Shown: positions 3,573 through 51,126 of the stretch, one piece after another
How the letters are laid out: the number at the start of each line of letters is the position of its first letter
Position numbering within the stretch: the first letter of the stretch is position 1
DNA from: Actinomycetota bacterium
GTDB lineage: Bacteria > Actinomycetota > Actinomycetes > Mycobacteriales > SCTD01
Direction of reading: 5' to 3'
DNA: 64,000 nt
NCBI GenBank assembly: GCA_019348355.1
Contig: JAHWJP010000001.1
Coordinates: 12,752-76,751 of the forward strand
Position numbers and translations under genes: made by a program
Notes under the pieces: model-generated
Told to the model about the DNA's origin: nothing
Database searches by the model: none
Seen by the model: only the letters and a program-made list of their open reading frames with translations

Positions 3573-3645
3573 CTCCCCCGTCTGGACTTGAACCAGAAAC
3601 CCTGCGATTAACAGTCGCATGCTCTGCCAATTGAGCTACGGGGGA
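3573..3645 (-). tRNA. tRNA-Asn (anticodon GTT)
   Basis: The 73-nt reverse complement folds as a cloverleaf. Acceptor TCCCCCG/CGGGGGA, D arm GCTC..GAGC, anticodon stem TGCGA/TCGCA with loop CTGTTAA, T arm TCTGG-TTCAAGT-CCAGA, discriminator G. CCA is not encoded. Confidence 0.95.
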
Positions 3646-11937: not shown

Positions 11938-13146
11938 TCACGCCTGTCGCAGGCCGGCGTGGAGGGAGGCCGCCGCCGCGTCGGTCAGCGAGGCGACCTG
12001 GTCGAGAACGACCCGCAGTCGGGCCCGGTCGTTCGCAGCCTCGCGCCAGGCCTCGGCATGGGCGGGCTCGAGCGCTGGCGCGCCGCGGTCGACGAGCAGG
12101 CCCACCAGCTCGGACACGACCTGCCGCTCGCGCTCCTGGGCAGCGATCACCCCGGGCCGGGCCATGACGTAGCGGGCCGCCACCGCCTTGAGCAGCGCGC
12201 ACTCGGCCCGGGTCCGGCGCGGTACGACCAGTTCGGCGTCGTAGCGGCGCAGCGGCTCGGTGCCGTAGACCTCCTGCGTGGCGAGCTGCGCGGTCGAGCA
12301 GAAACGGCCGATCAGCGTGCTGGTGGCCGCCTTGAGCATGGCCTGCGCGGAGGCGGTCCCGGTGTAGGCCGTCGGCCAGCACGCCAGCTCACGCAGCCCG
12401 GCAAGGACCTCGCGCAGGTCGGCCAAGCACTCCTCGCTGTAGAACGTCGCTGCCAGCTCGCACAGCGCCGCCTGCTCGTCGGGGTCCGCGAGGTCGCTCG
12501 GGTGCACGAGCCCGGCGATGATGCCGTCCTCCAGGTCGTGCACGGAGTAGGCGACGTCGTCGGCCCAGTCCATGACCTGCGACTCCAGGCAGCGCCGCTC
12601 GGTCGGCGCCCCGTCGCGCAGCCAGGTGAACACCTCCAGGTCGTCGTCGTAGACGCCGAACTTCGAGGTCGCTTCCCGCCTTCCCCACGGGTACTTCGTC
12701 GCGGCGTCGAGCGCCGCCCGGGTGAGGTTCAGCCCGGCGCCGACGACCTTCACCTCGAGCCGGGTCAGCACCCGCAGCGACTGGGCGTTCCCCTCGAATC
12801 CCCCACACTCCTGGGCGATCTCGTCGAGAGCAGCCTCGCCGTTGTGACCGTACGGCGGGTGGCCGAGGTCGTGCGCGAGGCAGGCCGCGTCGACCAGGTC
12901 GGCGTCGCACCCCAGGGACGCGCCGAGCTCGCGACCCACCTGCGCGCACTCCAGCGAGTGGGTCAGGCGGGTCCGCGGCACGGCGATGCCCGGCCCCCCG
13001 GGCTCGACCACCTGCGTCTTGCCGGCGAGTCGCCGCAACGCCCCGGAGTGCAGCACCCTGGCCCGGTCGCGCTGGAACGCCGTCCGGCCCTCTCGCTTGC
13101 CGTGCTCGGGGACCAGCCTGGCGCGCGCGTGGTCGTCATAGGTCAT
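11938..13146 (-). CDS. dgt: dGTP triphosphohydrolase-like HD-domain protein
   Basis: HD-domain motifs ([23 protein letters not shown]). Conserved position upstream of dnaG. Length 402 aa. Confidence 0.9.
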
Positions 13147-13153
13147 CGCGAGC

Positions 13154-13159
13154 AGCCTA
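13154..13159 (-). promoter_or_regulatory. putative -10 hexamer (TAGGCT) of leaderless dgt-dnaG-sigma operon
   Basis: TANNNT hexamer 7 nt upstream of ATG 13146, with no SD. Confidence 0.4.
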
Positions 13160-13195
13160 CGGCCGGCTCAACCCACGCCTCGACCGGACACATCC

Positions 13196-13275
13196 GCACA
13201 CATCGTGATCACTCCGGCCCCACCCTGAGCGTGAGCCTGGCCTTTGAATCGCGGAAGTGGATCACGTTGTGTGCA
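13196..13275 (-). repeat. 80-bp inverted-repeat element, copy 1
   Basis: The arms GCACACATCGTGATCACTCCG (13196-13216) and CGGAAGTGGATCACGTTGTGTGCA (13252-13275) are mutually complementary. Its reverse complement aligns with 36114-36195. Confidence 0.8.
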
Positions 13276-13334
13276 GATGCGACCACATCGAGGCGGAAGC
13301 GCCGAGGCCGATGCGGGGCGGGGCCCTGCCCGCC

Positions 13335-13340
13335 TACCCT
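13335..13340 (+). promoter_or_regulatory. putative -10 hexamer (TACCCT) of a leaderless transcript
   Basis: TANNNT hexamer 6 nt upstream of ATG 13347, with no SD. Confidence 0.4.
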
Positions 13341-13346
13341 CGGGGC

Positions 13347-14840
13347 ATGACCTCGACCCTGACCGACGCTGCTGTCGACACGTTCGACTCCTTCGACCCG
13401 GCCACCGGAGCGGTGCTGTCGAGCTGGCCGGCGCACTCGGCCGCGCAGGTCGAGGCCGCTGTCGGCCGCGCGAAGGAGGCGGCGCAGTGGTGGGGAGAGC
13501 TCGGCTTCGCCGGCCGCAGGACGCACCTGGCCTCCTGGAAGAGCGAGATCGCCCGTGGGGTGCCGGGGCTCGCGCGGCTGGTCCACGCCGAGAACGGCAA
13601 GCCCTTCCCTGACGCGGTGCTCGAAATCACGCTCGCCGTCGAGCACATCGCCTGGGCCGCGAAAAACGCACGGCGGGTGCTCGGCCCGCGCCGCATCCGT
13701 TCGGGGTTGCTGGCCGCCAATCAGGCCAGCACGCTGGAGTACCCGCCGCTCGGGGTGGTCGGTGTGATCGGTCCCTGGAACTACCCGGTGTTCACCCCGA
13801 TGGGTTCGCTGGCCTACGCGCTCGCGGCCGGCAACGCCGTGGTGTTCAAGCCGAGCGAGCACACCCCCGCGATCGGTGCCTGGCTGGTCGAGGCCTGGCG
13901 GCGCGCCGTCCCGGCCGGCCCCGACGTGCTGCAGCTCGTCACGGGCTTCGGGCCGACCGGCGCCGCGCTCTGCCGGTCCGGGGTCGACAAGATCGCCTTC
14001 ACCGGCTCGTCCGCGACCGGGCGCAAGGTGATGGCGGCCTGCGCCGAAGGTCTCGTGCCGGTGCTGATGGAGTGCGGCGGCAAGGACGCGATGATCGTGG
14101 GTGACGGTGCCGACGTCGCCGCTGCGGCGGACGCCGCACTGTGGGGAGCGATGAGCAACGCAGGGCAGACCTGCATCGGCATCGAGCGGGTCTACGTGAC
14201 CGACTCCTCCTACGACGGTTTCGTCTCGGAGCTGACGACCCGCGCCGCCGCGCTGCGGCCCGGCGACGGGGACGGTGCGTCGTACGGCCCGATCACGATG
14301 CCGAGCCAGGTCGAGGTCATCCGGCGGCACATCGCCGATGCGCTCGCCACGGGCGGTCGGGCACTGACCGGGGGCACGATAGAGGGGCCGTTCGTCACGC
14401 CCACCGTCCTCGTTGATGTGCCGGAGACCAGCAGCGCCGTCACCGACGAGACGTTCGGGCCGACCGTCACGGTGACGCGGGTGCCAGACGTGGAGGAGGC
14501 GCTGCGGCGCACCAACGCCACGTCGTACGGCCTGGCCGGCTCGGTGTTCGCCGCCTCGTCGAAGGCCGGGGTCGAGATCGCGAAGCGCATGCGCTCCGGG
14601 ATGACCAGTGTCAACTCCGTGATCGCGTTCGCGTCGGTTCCCGGGCTGCCGTTCGGCGGTGTCGGCGAGTCGGGCTTCGGTCGGATCCACGGCGACGACG
14701 GCTTGCGCGAGTTCGCCCGCGCCAAAGCGATTACCCGCCAGCGGTTCGCCCTACCGGTGGCGCTCACGTCTTTCGAGCGTCCGGAGAAGGTGACCGGTCA
14801 GCTGGTGCGGGCGGTCCGGCTGCTGTACGGCCGCGGCTGA
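13347..14840 (+). CDS. aldehyde dehydrogenase family protein
   Basis: ALDH motifs (GPWNYP, FTGSSATGRKV, ECGGKDA with catalytic Glu, GQTCIGIERVYV with catalytic Cys). Start set at MTSTLTD (ATG 13347). Confidence 0.9.
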   Translation: MTSTLTDAAVDTFDSFDPATGAVLSSWPAHSAAQVEAAVGRAKEAAQWWGELGFAGRRTHLASWKSEIARGVPGLARLVHAENGKPFPDAVLEITLAVEHIAWAAKNARRVLGPRRIRSGLLAANQASTLEYPPLGVVGVIGPWNYPVFTPMGSLAYALAAGNAVVFKPSEHTPAIGAWLVEAWRRAVPAGPDVLQLVTGFGPTGAALCRSGVDKIAFTGSSATGRKVMAACAEGLVPVLMECGGKDAMIVGDGADVAAAADAALWGAMSNAGQTCIGIERVYVTDSSYDGFVSELTTRAAALRPGDGDGASYGPITMPSQVEVIRRHIADALATGGRALTGGTIEGPFVTPTVLVDVPETSSAVTDETFGPTVTVTRVPDVEEALRRTNATSYGLAGSVFAASSKAGVEIAKRMRSGMTSVNSVIAFASVPGLPFGGVGESGFGRIHGDDGLREFARAKAITRQRFALPVALTSFERPEKVTGQLVRAVRLLYGRG

Positions 14841-19537: not shown

Positions 19538-20470
19538 CTAGGCGGCCCGGCGGGCGGCGGCCCTCGCGAACGCGCGCCGGATGCGGGCGGCAAGCACTTC
19601 CGGAAAGCGCAGCGCCTCGTCCCAGGTGTAGCGGACGACCTCGAAGCCGGCGTCCCGCAGACGGTCCTCTCGCAGCTTCTCCTCGAACAAGCCGGTGCCC
19701 GCCGCATACTTCACGGCGCCATCCGCCTCGGCGACCGTGCGGTGCTCCGGCCAGTAGTGGTCGACGCGCCCGATGCGGTCGTCCGCCGAGCCCAGCCACA
19801 CCTGCAGCTCCGGCACCGGCAGGCCCTGCTCCTCGAAGCGCACCCGGCCGAGGGACTCGAGGGCGGACTCAGCCCGGGCATCGGCGAACGTGACAGCGCG
19901 GCGGGCCGCCCGGATGCCCGGCCATCGCCGACTCCTGTCCACGAGCCGCTCGAGGTCCGCGAGCGTGGCCCCCTTGGCAAGGGCCACGTCGGCACACATG
20001 ACCCCCGCGGCGAACCCGCGCGTCCGCGCGACATCGACGGCGGTACGCGCCAGCGTCGTCACGGGCACGCCGTACAGCGTCTCGGTCTCGTCCGGCAGGA
20101 CGATACGGCTCGCTCCGTGGTGCTTCGGACGCTCGTGCTTGCGCTCGATGAGCATCGGCCGGACCGGGTCGCGCCCGAGCAGGCGGAGGTTCTGCATGAG
20201 GGCGGCCGTGCCGCCCGCGGCAACGAGATCGACGTCGCTGACGAGCCGCTCGGCTGCGACCGACAACGCCAGGCGAAGCACCGTGTCGAGCTCGCCCAGC
20301 AGCGCCGCCTCGGCGTAGACACCTGGGCGGACCCGGACCAGCTGGCGTGGCCGCGAGGTCGTGCCGAGTTGACTGGCCGGCACGCCGCCGTCCCGGGCCT
20401 GCTCGCGTGTCAGCACTCCGCCCTGTGACGCGGCCAGCTCCCGAAGCTCGTCATCCACGAAGGCGAGCAT
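19538..20470 (-). CDS. AbiEi-N-terminal-like / DUF559-like (restriction-endonuclease-fold) protein
   Basis: N-terminus FVDDELRELAASQGGVLTREQA...LVRVRPGVY. C-terminus RIGRVDHYWPEHRTVAEADGAVKY...REDRLRDAGFEVVRYTW is typical of DUF559/Vsr-like domains. Start set at ATG 20470. Confidence 0.65.
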   Translation of the reverse strand: MLAFVDDELRELAASQGGVLTREQARDGGVPASQLGTTSRPRQLVRVRPGVYAEAALLGELDTVLRLALSVAAERLVSDVDLVAAGGTAALMQNLRLLGRDPVRPMLIERKHERPKHHGASRIVLPDETETLYGVPVTTLARTAVDVARTRGFAAGVMCADVALAKGATLADLERLVDRSRRWPGIRAARRAVTFADARAESALESLGRVRFEEQGLPVPELQVWLGSADDRIGRVDHYWPEHRTVAEADGAVKYAAGTGLFEEKLREDRLRDAGFEVVRYTWDEALRFPEVLAARIRRAFARAAARRAA

Positions 20471-20526
20471 CCACGTACGCCCGACTCGGCGCCGAAGTTG
20501 TCCACAGCCCACCCACGCCCCATCGC

Positions 20527-34966: not shown

Positions 34967-35986
34967 TCAGGCCCCCGCCAACAGCTCGCCGACGTAGCGG
35001 GCGACGGCGCGTACAGAGCCCATGTTGCCGGCGTAGTCCATTCGGGTGGGGCCGACGACCCCGAGACCGCCGTAGGGGCTGCCGTCCGGGCCGTACCCCA
35101 TCGTCACGACGGAGGTGGACCGCAGTCCTTCCACGTTGTTCTCCTCACCGATCTTGACGTGCACGGCGCTCGGGTCGTTGACCTCACCGAGCAGCTTGAG
35201 CAGGACCACCTGCTCCTCCAAGGCCTCGAGCACGGGCCGCAGGGTCTGCGGGAAGTCCATGACATGGCGGGTGAGGTGGGCGGTGCCGCCGAGCACGATG
35301 CGCTCCTCGGGCTGGTCGACCAGCGTCTCGAGCACCACGGTCATGACGCTGGTCAGCACGGGCCGGATGGCGGTCGGCGCCGCGTCGGGCAGGTCAGCGA
35401 GCGCCGCCGGCGCGTCCACCAGTCGCGCGCCGTGCAGGCGGCTGCCGAAGGCCGACCGCAGCGAGGCCACCTCGTCGTCGTTCAGTGTCGCCGGGAGCTC
35501 GAGGACGCGCTGCTCGACCCGGCCGGTGTCGGTGATCAGCACCAGTAGCAGGCGGTTCGGCGCCAGGTGGACGATCTCGAGGTGGCGCACCGAACTGCGC
35601 GACAGGCTGGGGTACTGCACGACCGCCACCTGACGGGTCAGCTGGGACAGCAGGCGCACCGACCGGCGCACGACGTCGTCGAGGTCGACCGCGCCTTCGA
35701 GAAAGGACTGGATCGCGCGTCTCTCGGCGGGCGACAACGGCTTGACACTGGACAGTTTGTCGACGAACAGCCGGTAACCCTTGTCGGTCGGGATCCGGCC
35801 CGCGCTGGTGTGCGGGTGGGTGATGAAGCCCTCGTCCTCGAGCGCCGCCATGTCGTTGCGGACCGTGGCCGGGCTGACGCCGAGGCCGTGCCGCTGAGCC
35901 AGCGCCTTCGACCCCACCGGCTCGGTGGTCGACACGAAGTCCTCGACGATGGCGCGCAGCACCTCGAGCTTGCGGTCGTCGAGCAC
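34967..35986 (-). CDS. hrcA: heat-inducible transcription repressor HrcA
   Basis: [30 protein letters not shown]... GTG 35986 with AGGAGG upstream. A CIRCE element lies in the leader. Confidence 0.95.
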
Positions 35987-35998
35987 TGCGTCACCTCC

Positions 35999-36023
35999 TG
36001 GCACTCCGGTTCGACGAGTGCCA
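35999..36023. promoter_or_regulatory. CIRCE operator (HrcA binding site)
   Basis: TGGCACTC-N9-GAGTGCCA matches the CIRCE consensus TTAGCACTC-N9-GAGTGCTAA. It lies 13 nt upstream of the hrcA start, and a TACACT -10-like hexamer abuts it. Confidence 0.8.
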
Positions 36024-36113
36024 AGTGTACGGGCGGGAGGTGAACCGGGCCGCTGTCCAGTCGCCGCCGTACCCGGCCCGGCTCGGGTCGCCCTCCGCCC
36101 GGGCGGACCGTCC

Positions 36114-36195
36114 TGCACACATCGTGATCCACTTCCGTCACCTCGCACGCTCAGCAGTGCCTGTAGTGGCTGGCGCAACGATCACGACGTGTGCA
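36114..36195 (+). repeat. 80-bp inverted-repeat element, copy 2
   Basis: TGCACACATCGTGATCCACTTCCG ... CACGCTCAG ... GATCACGACGTGTGCA. It aligns block-for-block with the reverse complement of 13196-13275. Confidence 0.8.
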
Positions 36196-36249
36196 TTCGT
36201 GACCAGCCGGCGGGACGCGCCGCGTCGACAACCTGATCGAGGGATCTCT

Positions 36250-36939
36250 CTAGCGGGCGAGCCGGAGCGCGAGCTCGCGTGACCGCGCCACGTAGCCCCC
36301 ACCGAACAGGACGGCGTGCACCAGCAGCGGGAACAGCTGCCACAGTTCGACCCGGTCCCGCCAGCCGTCGGCCAGCGGCGCGACCTCCTCGTAGGCCGCG
36401 AGGGTGCGGGCCGGCACGGTGCCGAACAGGGCGAGCATCGCGAGGTCGACCTCCCGGTGGCCGCCGTAGGCAGCCGGGTCGATGAGCCACGGGCGCCCGG
36501 CGCAGTCGGCCAGCACGTTGCCGGTCCACAGGTCGCCGTGCAGGCGGGCGGGCGGTTCCGTCGGCGCGTCGACGTGCACCCGCTCGACCTCCCGGCTCAA
36601 GCCGGCGCGGGCGGCCAACGGCATCAGTCGGTGCTCCATGTAGTAGGCGTTCCAGTCGTCGGCCTCCGGGGACGGCACCTCGCAGCGACCGACGAACAGC
36701 GGACCCGGCGCCGGAAGGGAGCCGAACCGCGGCGCGCCGGCGCGGTGCACCGTCGCCAGCATCCGCCCGAGCTCCGCCTCACCGTCGGCACTCAACCGCC
36801 CCGGATCGATCCGGCACAGCACCAGCCGCGTCGGCGACTCCTCGACGATCTCCGGCACGCGGGCGCCGGCCGCGGCCAGCCAACGCAGCCCAGCGGCCTC
36901 GAGCGGCGCCGGATCAGCCTTGACGAACGTCGAGCTCAT
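36250..36939 (-). CDS. fructosamine/ketosamine kinase family protein
   Basis: LHGDLWTGNVL...DPAAYGGHREVDLAML is a kinase-fold signature typical of the fructosamine-3-kinase family. Confidence 0.8.
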   Translation of the reverse strand: MSSTFVKADPAPLEAAGLRWLAAAGARVPEIVEESPTRLVLCRIDPGRLSADGEAELGRMLATVHRAGAPRFGSLPAPGPLFVGRCEVPSPEADDWNAYYMEHRLMPLAARAGLSREVERVHVDAPTEPPARLHGDLWTGNVLADCAGRPWLIDPAAYGGHREVDLAMLALFGTVPARTLAAYEEVAPLADGWRDRVELWQLFPLLVHAVLFGGGYVARSRELALRLAR

Positions 36940-39207: not shown

Positions 39208-39687
39208 ATGACCGAGCCCGGACAGCCCCCTCCCTGGAACCAGCCGCCGCCGTACGGCTCGCCTCCCCCGCCCTACGGCGTGCCGCCGCAGGGCTATGGC
39301 GTGGAGGGTTACGGGACGCCGCCGCAGGGGTACGGCCCGCCGCCGCAGGGCTACGGGCCGCCACCGGGGCAGAACGAGGACCCGGTCTGGGCGATCCTCG
39401 CGCACCTGTCGATCTTCGTCTTCGCCCTGCTCGGCCCGCTCATCATCTACCTGATCTACAGGGACAGCTCGCCGCTCACCCGGCACCACGCAGCCGAGGC
39501 GCTGAACTTCCACATCACCCTGACCATCGCCACGATCGTGTCGATCCCGCTCGTCTTCTTGTTCATCGGCATCCCGTTGGTCTTCGCCATCATCATCGGC
39601 GGCATCGTGTTCGGGATCATCGCCGCCGTGGCGGCGAGCCGGCGCGAGCCCTACCGCTACCCGTTGACCATCCGCTTCGTGTCGTAG
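39208..39687 (+). CDS. DUF4870-like membrane protein with PPQGYG-repeat N-terminus
   Basis: Pro/Gly/Tyr-rich N-terminus, then WAILAHLSIFV...HHAAEALNFHITL and TM helices. Confidence 0.75.
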   Translation: MTEPGQPPPWNQPPPYGSPPPPYGVPPQGYGVEGYGTPPQGYGPPPQGYGPPPGQNEDPVWAILAHLSIFVFALLGPLIIYLIYRDSSPLTRHHAAEALNFHITLTIATIVSIPLVFLFIGIPLVFAIIIGGIVFGIIAAVAASRREPYRYPLTIRFVS

Positions 39688-39690
39688 CGG

Positions 39691-40131
39691 TCAGCGCACC
39701 AGCTCGCTGGGGACGAGCCTCACCGGGTAGGGCCGCTCCGTGTCGTACGACTCGTCGCCGGTGACCACGGCGGTCTCGGCGTAGGCACCGTCGCGCAGCT
39801 CGAGCACCGTCACCGACGGCGTCAACGGGTCGACCAGCCAGAACGACGGGACGCCACCCTGCTCGAAGACGTGATGCTTGAGCGTGCGGTCGGTGGCCCT
39901 CGTGCTCGGGGACAGGATCTCGACGACGAGGAACGGACGACGATCCGGCAGGCTGCGGTCCTTGGGCAGCACGACGAGATCCGGCTGGAGCTGCCGCCGC
40001 GGGCTGAAGCGGACGTCGAACGGCGCGACCAGCTCGTAGCGCAGGCCGTCATCGGGGAAGGCGTCCAAATCGTCCGCTGTCCAGCCACCCTCGGGTGCGG
40101 TCAGGAATGAGGTCACGGTCACAGCTGTCAT
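39691..40131 (-). CDS. Uma2 (DUF820) family PD-(D/E)xK endonuclease, short variant
   Basis: GLRYEL..., QPDLVVL, FLVVEILSPSTRATDRTLKHHVFEQGGVPSFWLVDP. About 30 aa shorter than the paralog at 43504-44034. Confidence 0.75.
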   Translation of the reverse strand: MTAVTVTSFLTAPEGGWTADDLDAFPDDGLRYELVAPFDVRFSPRRQLQPDLVVLPKDRSLPDRRPFLVVEILSPSTRATDRTLKHHVFEQGGVPSFWLVDPLTPSVTVLELRDGAYAETAVVTGDESYDTERPYPVRLVPSELVR

Positions 40132-43503: not shown

Positions 43504-44034
43504 TCAGCGTTGCAGTCGGACCGTGACCTCGAAGGGAACGGTCACCGTCAGCGGCTCAGACCCGGCGACGCGCTCGGTCTCGACGTACAAGCCGTCGGTC
43601 AGCGTCAGGACGGTGAGCGACGGCTCGACGGGGTCGACGAGCCAGTACGACGGGACGCCCGCCTCGGCGTAGATGCTCCACTTGCCGGTCACGTCGCGCC
43701 GACGGGTGCTGCGCGACAGGACCTCGACGACCAGCAAAGGCGCGACGGTCGTACCCCGCTCCTCGCAGTCGGCGGTGCGGGCGACCGTGACGTCGGCCAT
43801 CACGAACGACGTGTCGTCGTAGTAATAGCCAAAGTTGGAGCCGAGCACCTCCACACCTTCTGGCGCGGCGTTCCAGAGCTGGGCCGCAATCGCGATGTCC
43901 AGGCGTTCGTGACCGAAGGTGGCAGGCGGAGTCACGACGACGCACCCGTCGAGCACCTCGTAGCGCAGGCCGTTCTCGTCGAGGAAAGCCAACAGCTCGG
44001 GAAAGACCTGCGCCTCATGCGGCGTCGCCGTCAT
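43504..44034 (-). CDS. Uma2 (DUF820) family PD-(D/E)xK endonuclease
   Basis: LRYEVLDGCVVVTPPATFGHERL..., LLVVEVLSRSTRRRDVTGKWSIYAEAGVPSYWLVDP. GAGGAG upstream of the ATG. Confidence 0.8.
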   Translation of the reverse strand: MTATPHEAQVFPELLAFLDENGLRYEVLDGCVVVTPPATFGHERLDIAIAAQLWNAAPEGVEVLGSNFGYYYDDTSFVMADVTVARTADCEERGTTVAPLLVVEVLSRSTRRRDVTGKWSIYAEAGVPSYWLVDPVEPSLTVLTLTDGLYVETERVAGSEPLTVTVPFEVTVRLQR

Positions 44035-51058: not shown

Positions 51059-51126
51059 GGCAGCCTCGGCGGCGCGCGGGGTGGGTCGGGCAGCAGCTGT
51101 GGACGGGCGGACCGGCCTGTGGACGG

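What the first reader, a model, noticed from the sequence alone, without database searches (positions are those of the whole stretch)
13196..13275. 80-bp inverted-repeat element (copy 1) in the divergent promoter region of dgt-dnaG-sigma and an aldehyde dehydrogenase
Seen: the reverse complement of 13196-13275 aligns block-for-block with 36114-36195.
- TGCACACA(A/T)CGTGATCCACTTCCG: 23 of 24 identical.
- Internal CACGCTCAG: 9 of 9 identical.
- GATCACGA(T/C)GTGTGC: 14 of 15 identical.
- Total lengths are similar (80 versus 82 bp).

Within each copy the two outer arms are complementary over 15-21 nt, so each copy can form a long hairpin with a 34-50 nt loop. My rough estimate, allowing for GC bias, is well under 0.01 chance occurrences of the 24-mer match alone in a window this size.

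This copy lies 37 nt upstream of the dgt -10 hexamer and 60 nt upstream of the aldehyde dehydrogenase -10. I do not recognise it as any known operator, riboswitch or REP family. It could be a MITE-like repeat, a structured sRNA or insulator, or a paired operator for a looping regulator.
Basis: seen in the sequence. Interest (0 to 1): 0.62.

Follow-up and report, generated by a model that had tools for sequence, protein, structure and literature searches.

The report
Dispersed REPIN-like inverted-repeat element
The 80-bp inverted repeat is real, but it is not a dedicated control site for dgt or the aldehyde dehydrogenase: it is one copy of a roughly 100-bp repeat scattered between genes in a group of uncultured soil actinobacteria, it is missing from the same spot in close relatives, and it keeps turning up on both sides of one particular nuclease gene.

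Summary
Window 13195-13275 and 36114-36195 are two inverse copies of one element.

**Anatomy.** Each copy has two about 27-nt inverted end modules (sCGGnCAC-nn-CyGCACACAwCGTGATC). They flank a spacer whose sequence is free but whose length is fixed.

**Family.** A paired-arm pattern found 53 further loci in soil and desert metagenomes and 2 in MAG genomes.
- Spacers are 38-40, 48-51 or 59 nt, with nothing in between.
- Spacer sequences are barely more alike than shuffled ones.
- The spacers do not fold better than shuffles.
- No target duplications and no decayed copies were seen.
- Copies lie between genes of every orientation class (19 tandem, 7 divergent, 7 convergent), next to unrelated housekeeping genes.

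**Not an operator.**
- Relatives with 97% and 91% identical Dgt keep the aldehyde-dehydrogenase/dgt pair with a 55-nt spacer. The window has a 145-nt insertion there.
- Relatives with 98-86% identical HrcA keep the CIRCE site but have no element.

**Best reading.** This is a REPIN/MITE-like element, gained and lost between close relatives.

**Candidate partner.** One syntenic gene next to crtB encodes an AbiEi_4 + DUF559 protein (predicted DNA-binding domain plus nuclease). It carries the element upstream, downstream or both in orthologues from 100% to 55% identity. In 50 of 120 homologue clusters its stop codon lies inside an element arm. This link is correlative, not shown.

The parts
13160..13304 (.). 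Block present in the window but absent from the same aldehyde-dehydrogenase/dgt spacer in relatives (about 145 nt). It is the whole inserted unit at copy 1.
   Evidence: Alignment A2: L183/L184 (Dgt 97% identical) and L185 (91%) have a 55-nt spacer. The window has 200 nt between the two start codons.
13184..13210 (+). Copy 1, left end module: CCGGACACATCCGCACACATCGTGATC.
   Evidence: half-element consensus sCGGnCacnnCyGCACACAwCGTGATC.
13211..13259 (.). Copy 1 spacer, 49 nt. It contains the 7-mer GAGCGTG within CTGAGCGTG at 13225-13233.
13260..13288 (-). Copy 1, right end module. It is the inverted partner of the left module; its inner side is the GATCCAC type.
36103..36129 (+). Copy 2, left end module: GCGGACCGTCCTGCACACATCGTGATC. 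It is the GATCCAC-type arm.
36130..36179 (.). Copy 2 spacer, 50 nt, with CACGCTCAG at 36146-36154.
36180..36206 (-). Copy 2, right end module: GATCACGACGTGTGCA plus the outer ttcGTGACCag.
13154..13159 (-). Context only: TAGGCT, a -10-like hexamer 7 nt before the dgt ATG. It is conserved in relatives and left intact by the insertion.
   Evidence: invariant TAGGCTGCTCGCGATG. The promoter scan found no full sigma-70 match.
13335..13340 (+). Context only: TACCCT, a -10-like hexamer 6 nt before the aldehyde dehydrogenase ATG (13347).
35998..36024 (-). Context only: CIRCE operator (TTGGCACTC-N9-GAGTGCCAG) between copy 2 and the hrcA start at 35986. It is conserved in all relatives; the element is not.

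Best explanation
The feature is the core of a non-coding dispersed repeat of about 100-120 bp. It is found in an uncultured soil lineage of Actinomycetota (MAGs labelled Frankiales or Mycobacteriales).

**Anatomy.** Each copy has two inverted end modules of about 27 nt (sCGGnCAC-nn-CyGCACACAwCGTGATC).
- Just inside GATC the two arms usually differ: one reads GATCCAC(TTC), the other GATCGT.
- The spacer sequence is free, but its length falls in classes one helical turn apart (38-40, 48-51, 59 nt).
- The spacer often carries a 7-mer, GAGCGTG, in either orientation. It sits 16 or 26-27 nt from the CAC-type arm.

**Behaviour.** Copies are gained and lost between close relatives. They land in any kind of intergenic region. 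This is the behaviour of REPINs or MITEs, meaning non-autonomous elements moved in trans.
- Copy 1 is an insertion between the two closely spaced divergent -10 boxes of dgt and the aldehyde dehydrogenase.
- Copy 2 lies upstream of the hrcA CIRCE operator.
- Neither copy is part of the ancestral control region of those genes.

**Proposed mechanism (inferred).** A sequence-specific protein binds the two end modules on one face of double-stranded DNA. It pairs them, then cuts or copies the unit.

**Candidate enzyme.** The candidate is a single-copy, syntenic protein of about 295 aa encoded next to crtB. It combines an AbiEi_4 domain (predicted winged helix DNA binding) with a DUF559/Vsr-like PD-(D/E)XK nuclease domain. 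The element flanks this gene in every orthologue examined, as REPINs flank their RAYT gene.

**Shown:** the anatomy, the family, the insertion polymorphism, the random intergenic placement, and the physical linkage to the nuclease gene.

**Inferred:** that this protein binds or moves the element, and that the length classes reflect helical phasing.
For: **Family**
- 53 metagenome loci and 2 MAG loci (L032, L100) carry the full paired structure.
- The un-queried outer module is conserved: C-8 in 101/108, G-11 in 95/108, G-1 in 104/108 half-elements.
- Spacer lengths in 62 unique elements, with 30-75 nt allowed, are 38-40 (11), 48-51 (50) and 59 (1).
- Spacer pairwise identity is 39-40%, against 29-31% for shuffles.
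- Spacers do not fold better than shuffles (mean z -0.2).
- The 7-mer sits at offset 16 or 26-27 in both orientations.
- Arm asymmetry: positions 14 and 15 agree between the two arms in only 7 and 10 of 55 elements, against about 22 expected.

**Mobility**
- There is an empty site in L183/L184 (Dgt 97%) and L185 (91%), against a 145-nt insertion in the window.
- No element lies upstream of hrcA, or within about 21 kb, in relatives with 98, 94, 93, 91 and 86% HrcA identity. CIRCE is conserved in them.
- An independent copy lies upstream of dgt in an 80% relative, which has a different upstream neighbour (L168).

**Placement**
- Fully flanked copies: tandem 19, divergent 7, convergent 7.
- There is no polarity toward gene ends (18/18/13/12).
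- The 109 neighbouring proteins match 135 Pfam families, mostly housekeeping. No transposase family appears among the 25 families shared by two or more neighbours.

**Nuclease link**
- The element lies upstream, downstream or both of the AbiEi_4 + DUF559 gene in L136, L127, L032, L121/L134/L162, L186, L187/L188, L192-L195 and L189-L191. These orthologues span 100% to 55% protein identity.
- In L192-L195 (one 64%-identity orthologue on four contigs), all four arms flanking the gene carry the same variant, GCACACAGCCTGATC.
- 50 of the 120 best homologue clusters end in H-[T/A]-[S/A]-stop. That is the arm CAC-ACN-NCN-TGA read in frame.
- The motif IGRVD..W..E.DG is invariant.

**REPIN comparison**
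- The published REPIN description fits: inverted REP pair, non-identical spacers, discrete spacings, and a single-copy enzyme gene flanked by the repeats (PMC3337134).
Against: - No transposition event, target duplication or excision scar was seen. Direct repeats in the flanks are no more frequent than in controls.
- The exact termini are undefined. The inserted block at copy 1 (145 nt) is longer than the conserved core (about 105 nt).
- Genome copy number is unknown. There are 2 copies in this 64-kb window and none in roughly 110 kb (my estimate, after collapsing duplicate contigs) of relatives' DNA.
- No decayed copies were found in 530 kb. That is unusual for selfish repeats and fits a host-selected binding site.
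- Two copies in one genome share no interior similarity, so no recent burst is visible.
- The nuclease link is correlative. It rests on one orthologous locus inherited vertically.
- DUF559-family genes have their own upstream motif, GTCCACAG. That motif, rather than the element arms, may be what the helix-turn-helix domain binds.
- The window itself holds only a 32% paralogue (19538-20512), with no element beside it.
Confidence: 0.55

Rival explanations
1. The element is a paired operator. A dimer-of-dimers regulator binds the two partly palindromic arms 5, 6 or 7 helical turns apart and loops the DNA. The dispersed copies would form its regulon. The regulator could be the AbiEi_4-DUF559 protein itself.
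For: - Spacer lengths fall in steps of about 10.5 nt, and so do the 7-mer offsets.
- The arms are nearly invariant and no decayed copies exist.
- Each arm has internal dyad character, TGnnCACnnnGTGnnCA (read directly from the sequence).
- A copy is retained in the crtB/DUF559 divergent region across orthologues down to 55% identity.
Against: - It is absent from the orthologous dgt/aldehyde-dehydrogenase and hrcA control regions of close relatives.
- 7 of 33 fully flanked copies lie between convergent 3' ends, where there is no promoter.
- The class proportions match random intergenic placement.
- There is no orientation bias toward genes.
- The neighbours are unrelated housekeeping genes from 135 Pfam families.
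Confidence: 0.15
2. The element is a classical MITE: an internally deleted derivative of a TIR-bearing insertion sequence, moved by that element's DDE transposase.
For: - It has terminal inverted repeats.
- It is small, about 100 bp.
- It is intergenic.
- It shows presence/absence polymorphism between close relatives.
Against: - No target-site duplication was detected.
- Interiors of different copies are unrelated, even within one genome.
- The most conserved bases are subterminal, not at the tips.
- No transposase family recurs near copies.
- No long element bounded by single arms was seen in 530 kb.
Confidence: 0.15
3. The element is a structured RNA: a small RNA, or a hairpin in the untranslated ends of mRNAs that ends transcription or protects against exonucleases, as proposed for REP sequences.
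For: - Each copy folds into a stable long hairpin, with z down to -5.2.
- Many copies lie 20-65 nt after a stop codon.
- Position 6 of the arms agrees between partners more often than shuffles give (40/55 against 27.6).
Against: - There is no Rfam match even at E = 1.
- There is no U-tract and no terminator call.
- Variable arm position 8 shows no compensatory change (42/55 against 43 expected).
- The interior is not structured.
- Discrete length classes are not expected for a loop.
- Copies occur in either orientation and also between divergent starts.
Confidence: 0.07

Closest known systems
REPINs (REP doublets forming hairpins) with their RAYT genes, described in Pseudomonas and Enterobacteria (PMC3116915, PMC3337134)
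   Same: - Two conserved short sequences sit in inverted orientation around a less conserved spacer.
- No two spacers are alike.
- Spacings fall into discrete classes.
- Copies are extragenic.
- Copies come and go between relatives.
- One single-copy, vertically inherited DNA-enzyme gene is flanked by the repeats.
   Different: - The flanked gene encodes a winged-helix (AbiEi_4) plus PD-(D/E)XK (DUF559/Vsr-like) protein, not an HUH/Y1 tyrosine transposase.
- The spacer is not hairpin-forming.
- No REP singlets or decayed copies were seen.
- Spacing classes differ by one helical turn.
- The host is an actinobacterium; the search found no paper combining REPIN, RAYT and Actinobacteria.
- Apparent copy density is low.
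BIMEs of E. coli (inverted REP pairs around a fixed-length linker that binds IHF or gyrase); comparison from my own knowledge, not tested here
   Same: - It has an inverted pair of conserved palindromic units.
- The linker has a set length and can hold a short conserved motif.
- Copies are located between genes of all orientations.
   Different: - The sequence is unrelated.
- No evidence here for binding by a nucleoid protein.
- The internal 7-mer occurs in both orientations.
MITEs (for example Correia elements of Neisseria); comparison from my own knowledge
   Same: - It is small.
- It has terminal inverted repeats.
- It is intergenic.
- Insertions occur close to promoters.
   Different: - No target duplication.
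- Interiors are unrelated between copies.
- No parent insertion sequence was found.
AbiEi antitoxin operators (paired inverted repeats bound cooperatively, with DNA bending); comparison from my own knowledge
   Same: The candidate partner protein carries an AbiEi_4-type N-terminal domain. The element is a pair of inverted sites.
   Different: - AbiEi operators are single sites at their own promoter, a few bp apart.
- Here the arms are 53-74 bp apart and dispersed across the genome.
- No AbiEii toxin gene is adjacent.

Membership tests
REPIN/RAYT system | [quoted passage not shown] | tested here: met
   All 62 unique elements show this.
REPIN/RAYT system | Each REP unit contains its own imperfect palindrome | tested here: inconclusive
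   Each end module can pair GGnCACG with CGTGATC (6 of 7) around GCACACA. The variable positions (-9, -7, -5) do not support selection for that pairing.
REPIN/RAYT system | The whole doublet, spacer included, forms a hairpin | tested here: not met
   The arms pair. The spacers fold no better than shuffles (mean z -0.2; 7% below -2).
REPIN/RAYT system | Extragenic, with many copies per genome | tested here: inconclusive
   Copies are nearly always intergenic. There are two copies in this 64-kb window and about 15 distinct loci in one metagenome sample. No complete genome could be scanned.
REPIN/RAYT system | Cognate RAYT (HUH/Y1 transposase) gene flanked by the repeats | tested here: not met
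   The only gene flanked on both sides encodes AbiEi_4 + DUF559. No Y1_Tnp family appears among the 25 Pfam families shared by two or more of the 109 neighbouring proteins. Genomes could not be searched in full.
MITE | Terminal inverted repeats | tested here: met
MITE | Target-site duplication flanking each copy | tested here: not met
   The longest direct repeat between flanks averages 5.1 nt, against 5.2 in mismatched controls. At the one filled/empty pair, only a weak CGGCC similarity is seen.
MITE | Copies of a family are homologous along their whole length and derive from a longer autonomous element | tested here: not met
   Spacer identity is 39-40%, against about 30% for shuffles. No long element with single arms was found in 530 kb.
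Transcription-factor operator (regulon site) | Conserved upstream of orthologous target genes | tested here: not met
   It is absent in dgt and hrcA relatives. It is retained only at the crtB/DUF559 locus.
Transcription-factor operator (regulon site) | Confined to promoter-containing intergenic regions | tested here: not met
   7 of 33 fully flanked copies lie between convergent genes.
Rfam RNA families | Match to a curated covariance model | tested here: not met
   Only a tRNA is found in the window at gathering score. Nothing is found at E <= 1 around either copy.

The most novel reading that the evidence does not exclude
These elements and the crtB-linked AbiEi_4-DUF559 gene form a REPIN-like system built on a different enzyme. 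The enzyme is a single-copy, vertically inherited winged-helix/PD-(D/E)XK nuclease. It recognises the two end modules on one face of double-stranded DNA, which would explain spacers that differ by whole helical turns. It then maintains, moves or homogenises a population of about 100-bp repeats across the chromosome. This would be a second, independent origin of the 'domesticated enzyme plus dependent repeat population' arrangement, in Actinomycetota. It would also give a function to a subset of the widespread DUF559 proteins.
Probability: 0.3. Interest if true: 0.8.

Novelty: new variant of a known kind. Interest (0 to 1): 0.55.

Why it matters
Dispersed palindromic repeats with a dedicated enzyme (REPIN/RAYT) have so far been described in Proteobacteria, where the enzyme is an HUH transposase.

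If this family is confirmed, it would show the same lifestyle in high-G+C soil actinobacteria with a different candidate enzyme. It would also offer a clean test case:
- the ends are invariant;
- the interiors are free;
- the spacing comes in whole helical turns.

These features bear on how such repeats are recognised.

For this window the practical message is narrower. The element should not be read as part of the native control of dgt-dnaG-sigma, the aldehyde dehydrogenase or hrcA-dnaJ. Its insertion does push the two divergent -10 boxes from about 30 to about 175 nt apart, and that may have changed their upstream promoter context.

Tried and rejected
- **Single-arm genome scan.** Only L032 and L100 were real.
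- **Exact-sequence look-up of the window's HrcA.** It is not on record.
- **Known actinobacterial operators, recalled from memory.** I compared the arms with LexA, PafBC, NrdR, Crp, Rex, HAIR, IdeR, Zur and the DnaA box. None fits. CIRCE is present but is separate from the element.
- **Rfam.** Nothing at gathering score or at E = 1.
- **Promoter and terminator consensus scan of 13100-13400.** Nothing.
- **Plasmid and phage collections, and IMG/VR with two arm variants.** Nothing.
- **Literature.** No paper describes the sequence or links DUF559 with AbiEi or with repeats.
- **Hairpin covariation in unconstrained arm positions.** Only position 6 agrees more than shuffles. Position 8 does not.
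- **Interior folding.** Not above shuffles.
- **Target duplications and longer inverted repeats in the flanks.** Not above controls.
- **Invertible-switch idea.** This was raised because the 7-mer occurs in both orientations. I rejected it because the CAC-type arm end would flip together with the interior, and about 50 bp is too short to invert.
- **Degenerate copies by nhmmer.** None were found.
- **Element next to the window's own DUF559 paralogue.** None.

Full report
**1.

Window 13195-13275 and 36114-36195 carry the same architecture in opposite orientation.
- A 16-nt arm, (T/C)GCACACRWCGTGATC, is followed by about 50 nt and then the inverted arm.
- A shared CTGAGCGTG/CACGCTCAG sits inside.
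- The arm occurs four times in the window and only as these two pairs.
- Both copies fold into long hairpins, with z -2.8 to -5.2.

- dgt is at 11938-13146 on the minus strand, followed by dnaG and a sigma-70 gene.
- An aldehyde dehydrogenase starts at 13347 on the plus strand.
- Copy 2 lies between a fructosamine-kinase-like gene (36250-36939, minus) and hrcA-dnaJ (hrcA start 35986, minus).
- A CIRCE operator at 35998-36024 sits between copy 2 and hrcA.

**2. It belongs to a family**

A scan of genome contigs with one arm was mostly wasted on chance hits. Two MAGs labelled Mycobacteriales did have the full paired structure (L032, L100).

A paired-arm pattern then found 53 loci in soil and desert metagenomes. 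The same pattern found none in 2.9 million viral contigs.

The hits share features the pattern did not require.
- **Outer module.** The conserved region extends outward. The half-element consensus is sCGGnCacnnCyGCACACAwCGTGATCnaC. The unit is therefore about 92 or about 103 nt, not 80.
- **Arm asymmetry.** Just inside GATC the two arms differ. One is GATCCAC(TTC), the other GATCGT. Positions 14 and 15 agree in only 7 and 10 of 55 elements, against about 22 expected.
- **Spacer length.** With 30-75 nt allowed, 62 unique elements have spacers of 38-40 (11), 48-51 (50) or 59 nt (1), and nothing between.
- **Spacer sequence.** Spacers are almost unrelated: 39-40% pairwise identity against 29-31% for shuffles. 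They are not self-complementary (mean z -0.2).
- **Internal 7-mer.** GAGCGTG sits 16 or 26-27 nt from the CAC-type arm, in either orientation.
- **No decay.** A half-element HMM finds no degenerate or single arms in 530 kb of related DNA.

**3. Where copies sit**

Almost all copies are intergenic.
- Of the 33 copies with genes called on both sides, 19 lie between tandem genes, 7 between divergent starts and 7 between convergent ends. These are the proportions expected from random intergenic placement.
- The asymmetric arms show no polarity toward 5' or 3' gene ends (18/18/13/12).
- The 109 neighbouring proteins match 135 Pfam families, mostly housekeeping. No transposase family appears among the 25 families shared by two or more neighbours.

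**4. Not part of the native control regions**

*hrcA.* HrcA homologues with 98, 94, 93, 91 and 86% identity were traced to their contigs. All keep the CIRCE site. None has the element upstream of hrcA or anywhere in up to 21 kb.

*dgt.* Dgt homologues with 97% identity (L183, L184) and 91% (L185) keep the divergent aldehyde-dehydrogenase/dgt pair.
- Their spacer is 55 nt. The window has 200 nt.
- The alignment shows a clean 145-nt insertion at about 13160-13304. It lies between the two conserved TANNNT boxes that sit 6-7 nt before each start codon.
- An 80% relative (L168) has another copy upstream of dgt, but with a different upstream neighbour.

Copies are therefore gained or lost on the time scale of a few percent protein divergence. 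No target duplication could be detected. The exact termini remain open.

**5. One locus behaves differently**

In L136 two elements flank a single gene. Its product has an AbiEi_4 N-terminal domain and a DUF559/MTES_1575 (Vsr-like PD-(D/E)XK) C-terminal domain.

The same gene lies next to crtB in a conserved carotenoid cluster. It carries the element upstream, downstream or both in orthologues as follows.

| Loci | Protein identity to L136 | Element position |
|---|---|---|
| L136 | 100% | both sides |
| L127 | 85% | downstream (contig ends inside the gene) |
| L187/L188 | 74% | both sides |
| L186 | 67% | upstream only |
| L192-L195 | 64% | both sides |
| L032 | 62% | upstream (downstream sequence masked) |
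| L121/L134/L162 | 55-59% | upstream |
| L189-L191 | 55% | upstream only |

Further points on this locus:
- In L192-L195 (four contigs carrying one 64%-identity orthologue), all four arms carry the same variant, GCACACAGCCTGATC.
- In 50 of the 120 best homologue clusters the protein ends in H-[T/A]-[S/A]-stop, often preceded by R-T. This is the end module CGG-ACC-...-CAC-ACN-NCN-TGA read in frame. The gene's stop codon therefore lies inside the downstream element in many lineages.
- The putative catalytic motif IGRVD..W..E.DG is invariant.

Copies at this locus are stable over deep divergence. Copies elsewhere turn over quickly.

**6. Interpretation**

The best fit is a REPIN-like dispersed repeat. 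The published description of REPINs matches in several ways (PMC3337134):
- an inverted pair of conserved units;
- non-identical spacers;
- discrete spacings;
- a single-copy enzyme gene flanked by the repeats.

It is not a REPIN by membership.
- The flanked gene is not a RAYT.
- The spacer does not form a hairpin.

It also fails two MITE criteria: target duplication, and homology along the whole length.

Three features are better explained by a protein reading both arms on one face of double-stranded DNA than by an RNA or single-strand hairpin:
- spacer classes one helical turn apart;
- phased 7-mer offsets;
- sequence-level rather than compensatory conservation of the arms.

DUF559-family genes also have their own upstream motif, GTCCACAG. 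This includes the window's 32% paralogue at 19538-20512. That motif may be the true target of their helix-turn-helix domain.

**7. Rivals**
- **Looping operator or regulon.** It is contradicted by the empty orthologous sites, by the convergent-gene copies and by the unrelated neighbours.
- **Structured RNA.** It lacks Rfam support, compensatory change and orientation bias.
- **Classical MITE.** It lacks target duplications and a parent element.
- **Chance.** It is excluded by the family.

**8. Local consequence**

At copy 1 the insertion leaves both -10-like boxes and both start codons untouched. It replaces the DNA where any -35 or upstream elements of the two divergent promoters would lie. 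Whether this changed expression is not testable here.

At copy 2 the element lies about 90 nt upstream of CIRCE, after the stop codon of the upstream gene. It has no U-tract. No promoter or terminator scan was run on that region.

**9. Verdict**

The feature is real. It is a member of an apparently undescribed family. It works like a REPIN or MITE and not like a dedicated operator. The candidate nuclease partnership is the part worth following up.

Noticed in passing
window 35998-36024 (minus strand): A CIRCE operator (TTGGCACTC-N9-GAGTGCCAG) lies just upstream of the hrcA start, after a conserved GTACAC. It is conserved in all relatives examined.
   Followed up: partly
window 13154-13159 and 13335-13340: TANNNT boxes lie 6-7 nt before the dgt and aldehyde dehydrogenase start codons. 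This suggests two back-to-back leaderless promoters. In relatives the boxes are only about 30 nt apart.
   Followed up: partly
window 19538-20512 (minus) and 20499-20507: A paralogue of the AbiEi_4-DUF559 family (32% identical to the crtB-linked protein) has TGTCCACAG at its 5' end. The same GTCCACAG motif recurs within 100 nt upstream of family members in L186, L187, L189, L136 and L185. The background rate is 0.03 per kb. It may be the family's own operator.
   Followed up: partly
L136 1207-1234; proteins P0241-P0311: The last codons and the TGA stop of many crtB-linked DUF559 proteins are encoded by the arm of the downstream element. The C-terminal signature is R-T-x-x-H-T-S/A.
   Followed up: yes
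L168 2726-2830: In a relative with 80% identical Dgt, an element starts directly after the stop codon of a PGA_cap-family gene and lies about 85 nt upstream of the dgt -10 box. This is a second, apparently independent, copy upstream of dgt.
   Followed up: partly
L129 3346-3413: One family member is a perfect 68-nt palindrome throughout, spacer included, unlike the others. It may result from an excision or repair event, or it may be an assembly artefact at a contig end.
   Followed up: no
L135, L140, L141, L146, L147, L151, L155, L163, L169: These are mixed elements. One arm is of the CCTGATC type and the other of the CGTGATC type. A hairpin formed from them would carry a C-C mismatch.
   Followed up: partly
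window 51097-51125: Two CGTCCACAG motifs lie 20 nt apart on the minus strand. The neighbouring genes were not examined.
   Followed up: no
window 39253-39356; 39758-39869 and 43562-43673: A tandem 57-nt repeat encodes a proline/tyrosine/glycine-rich stretch. Separately, a 112-nt direct repeat (71% identical) occurs 3.8 kb apart. Both came from the repeat finder and were not examined.
   Followed up: no
window 3573-3645 (minus): A tRNA gene is the only Rfam gathering-score match in the window.
   Followed up: no
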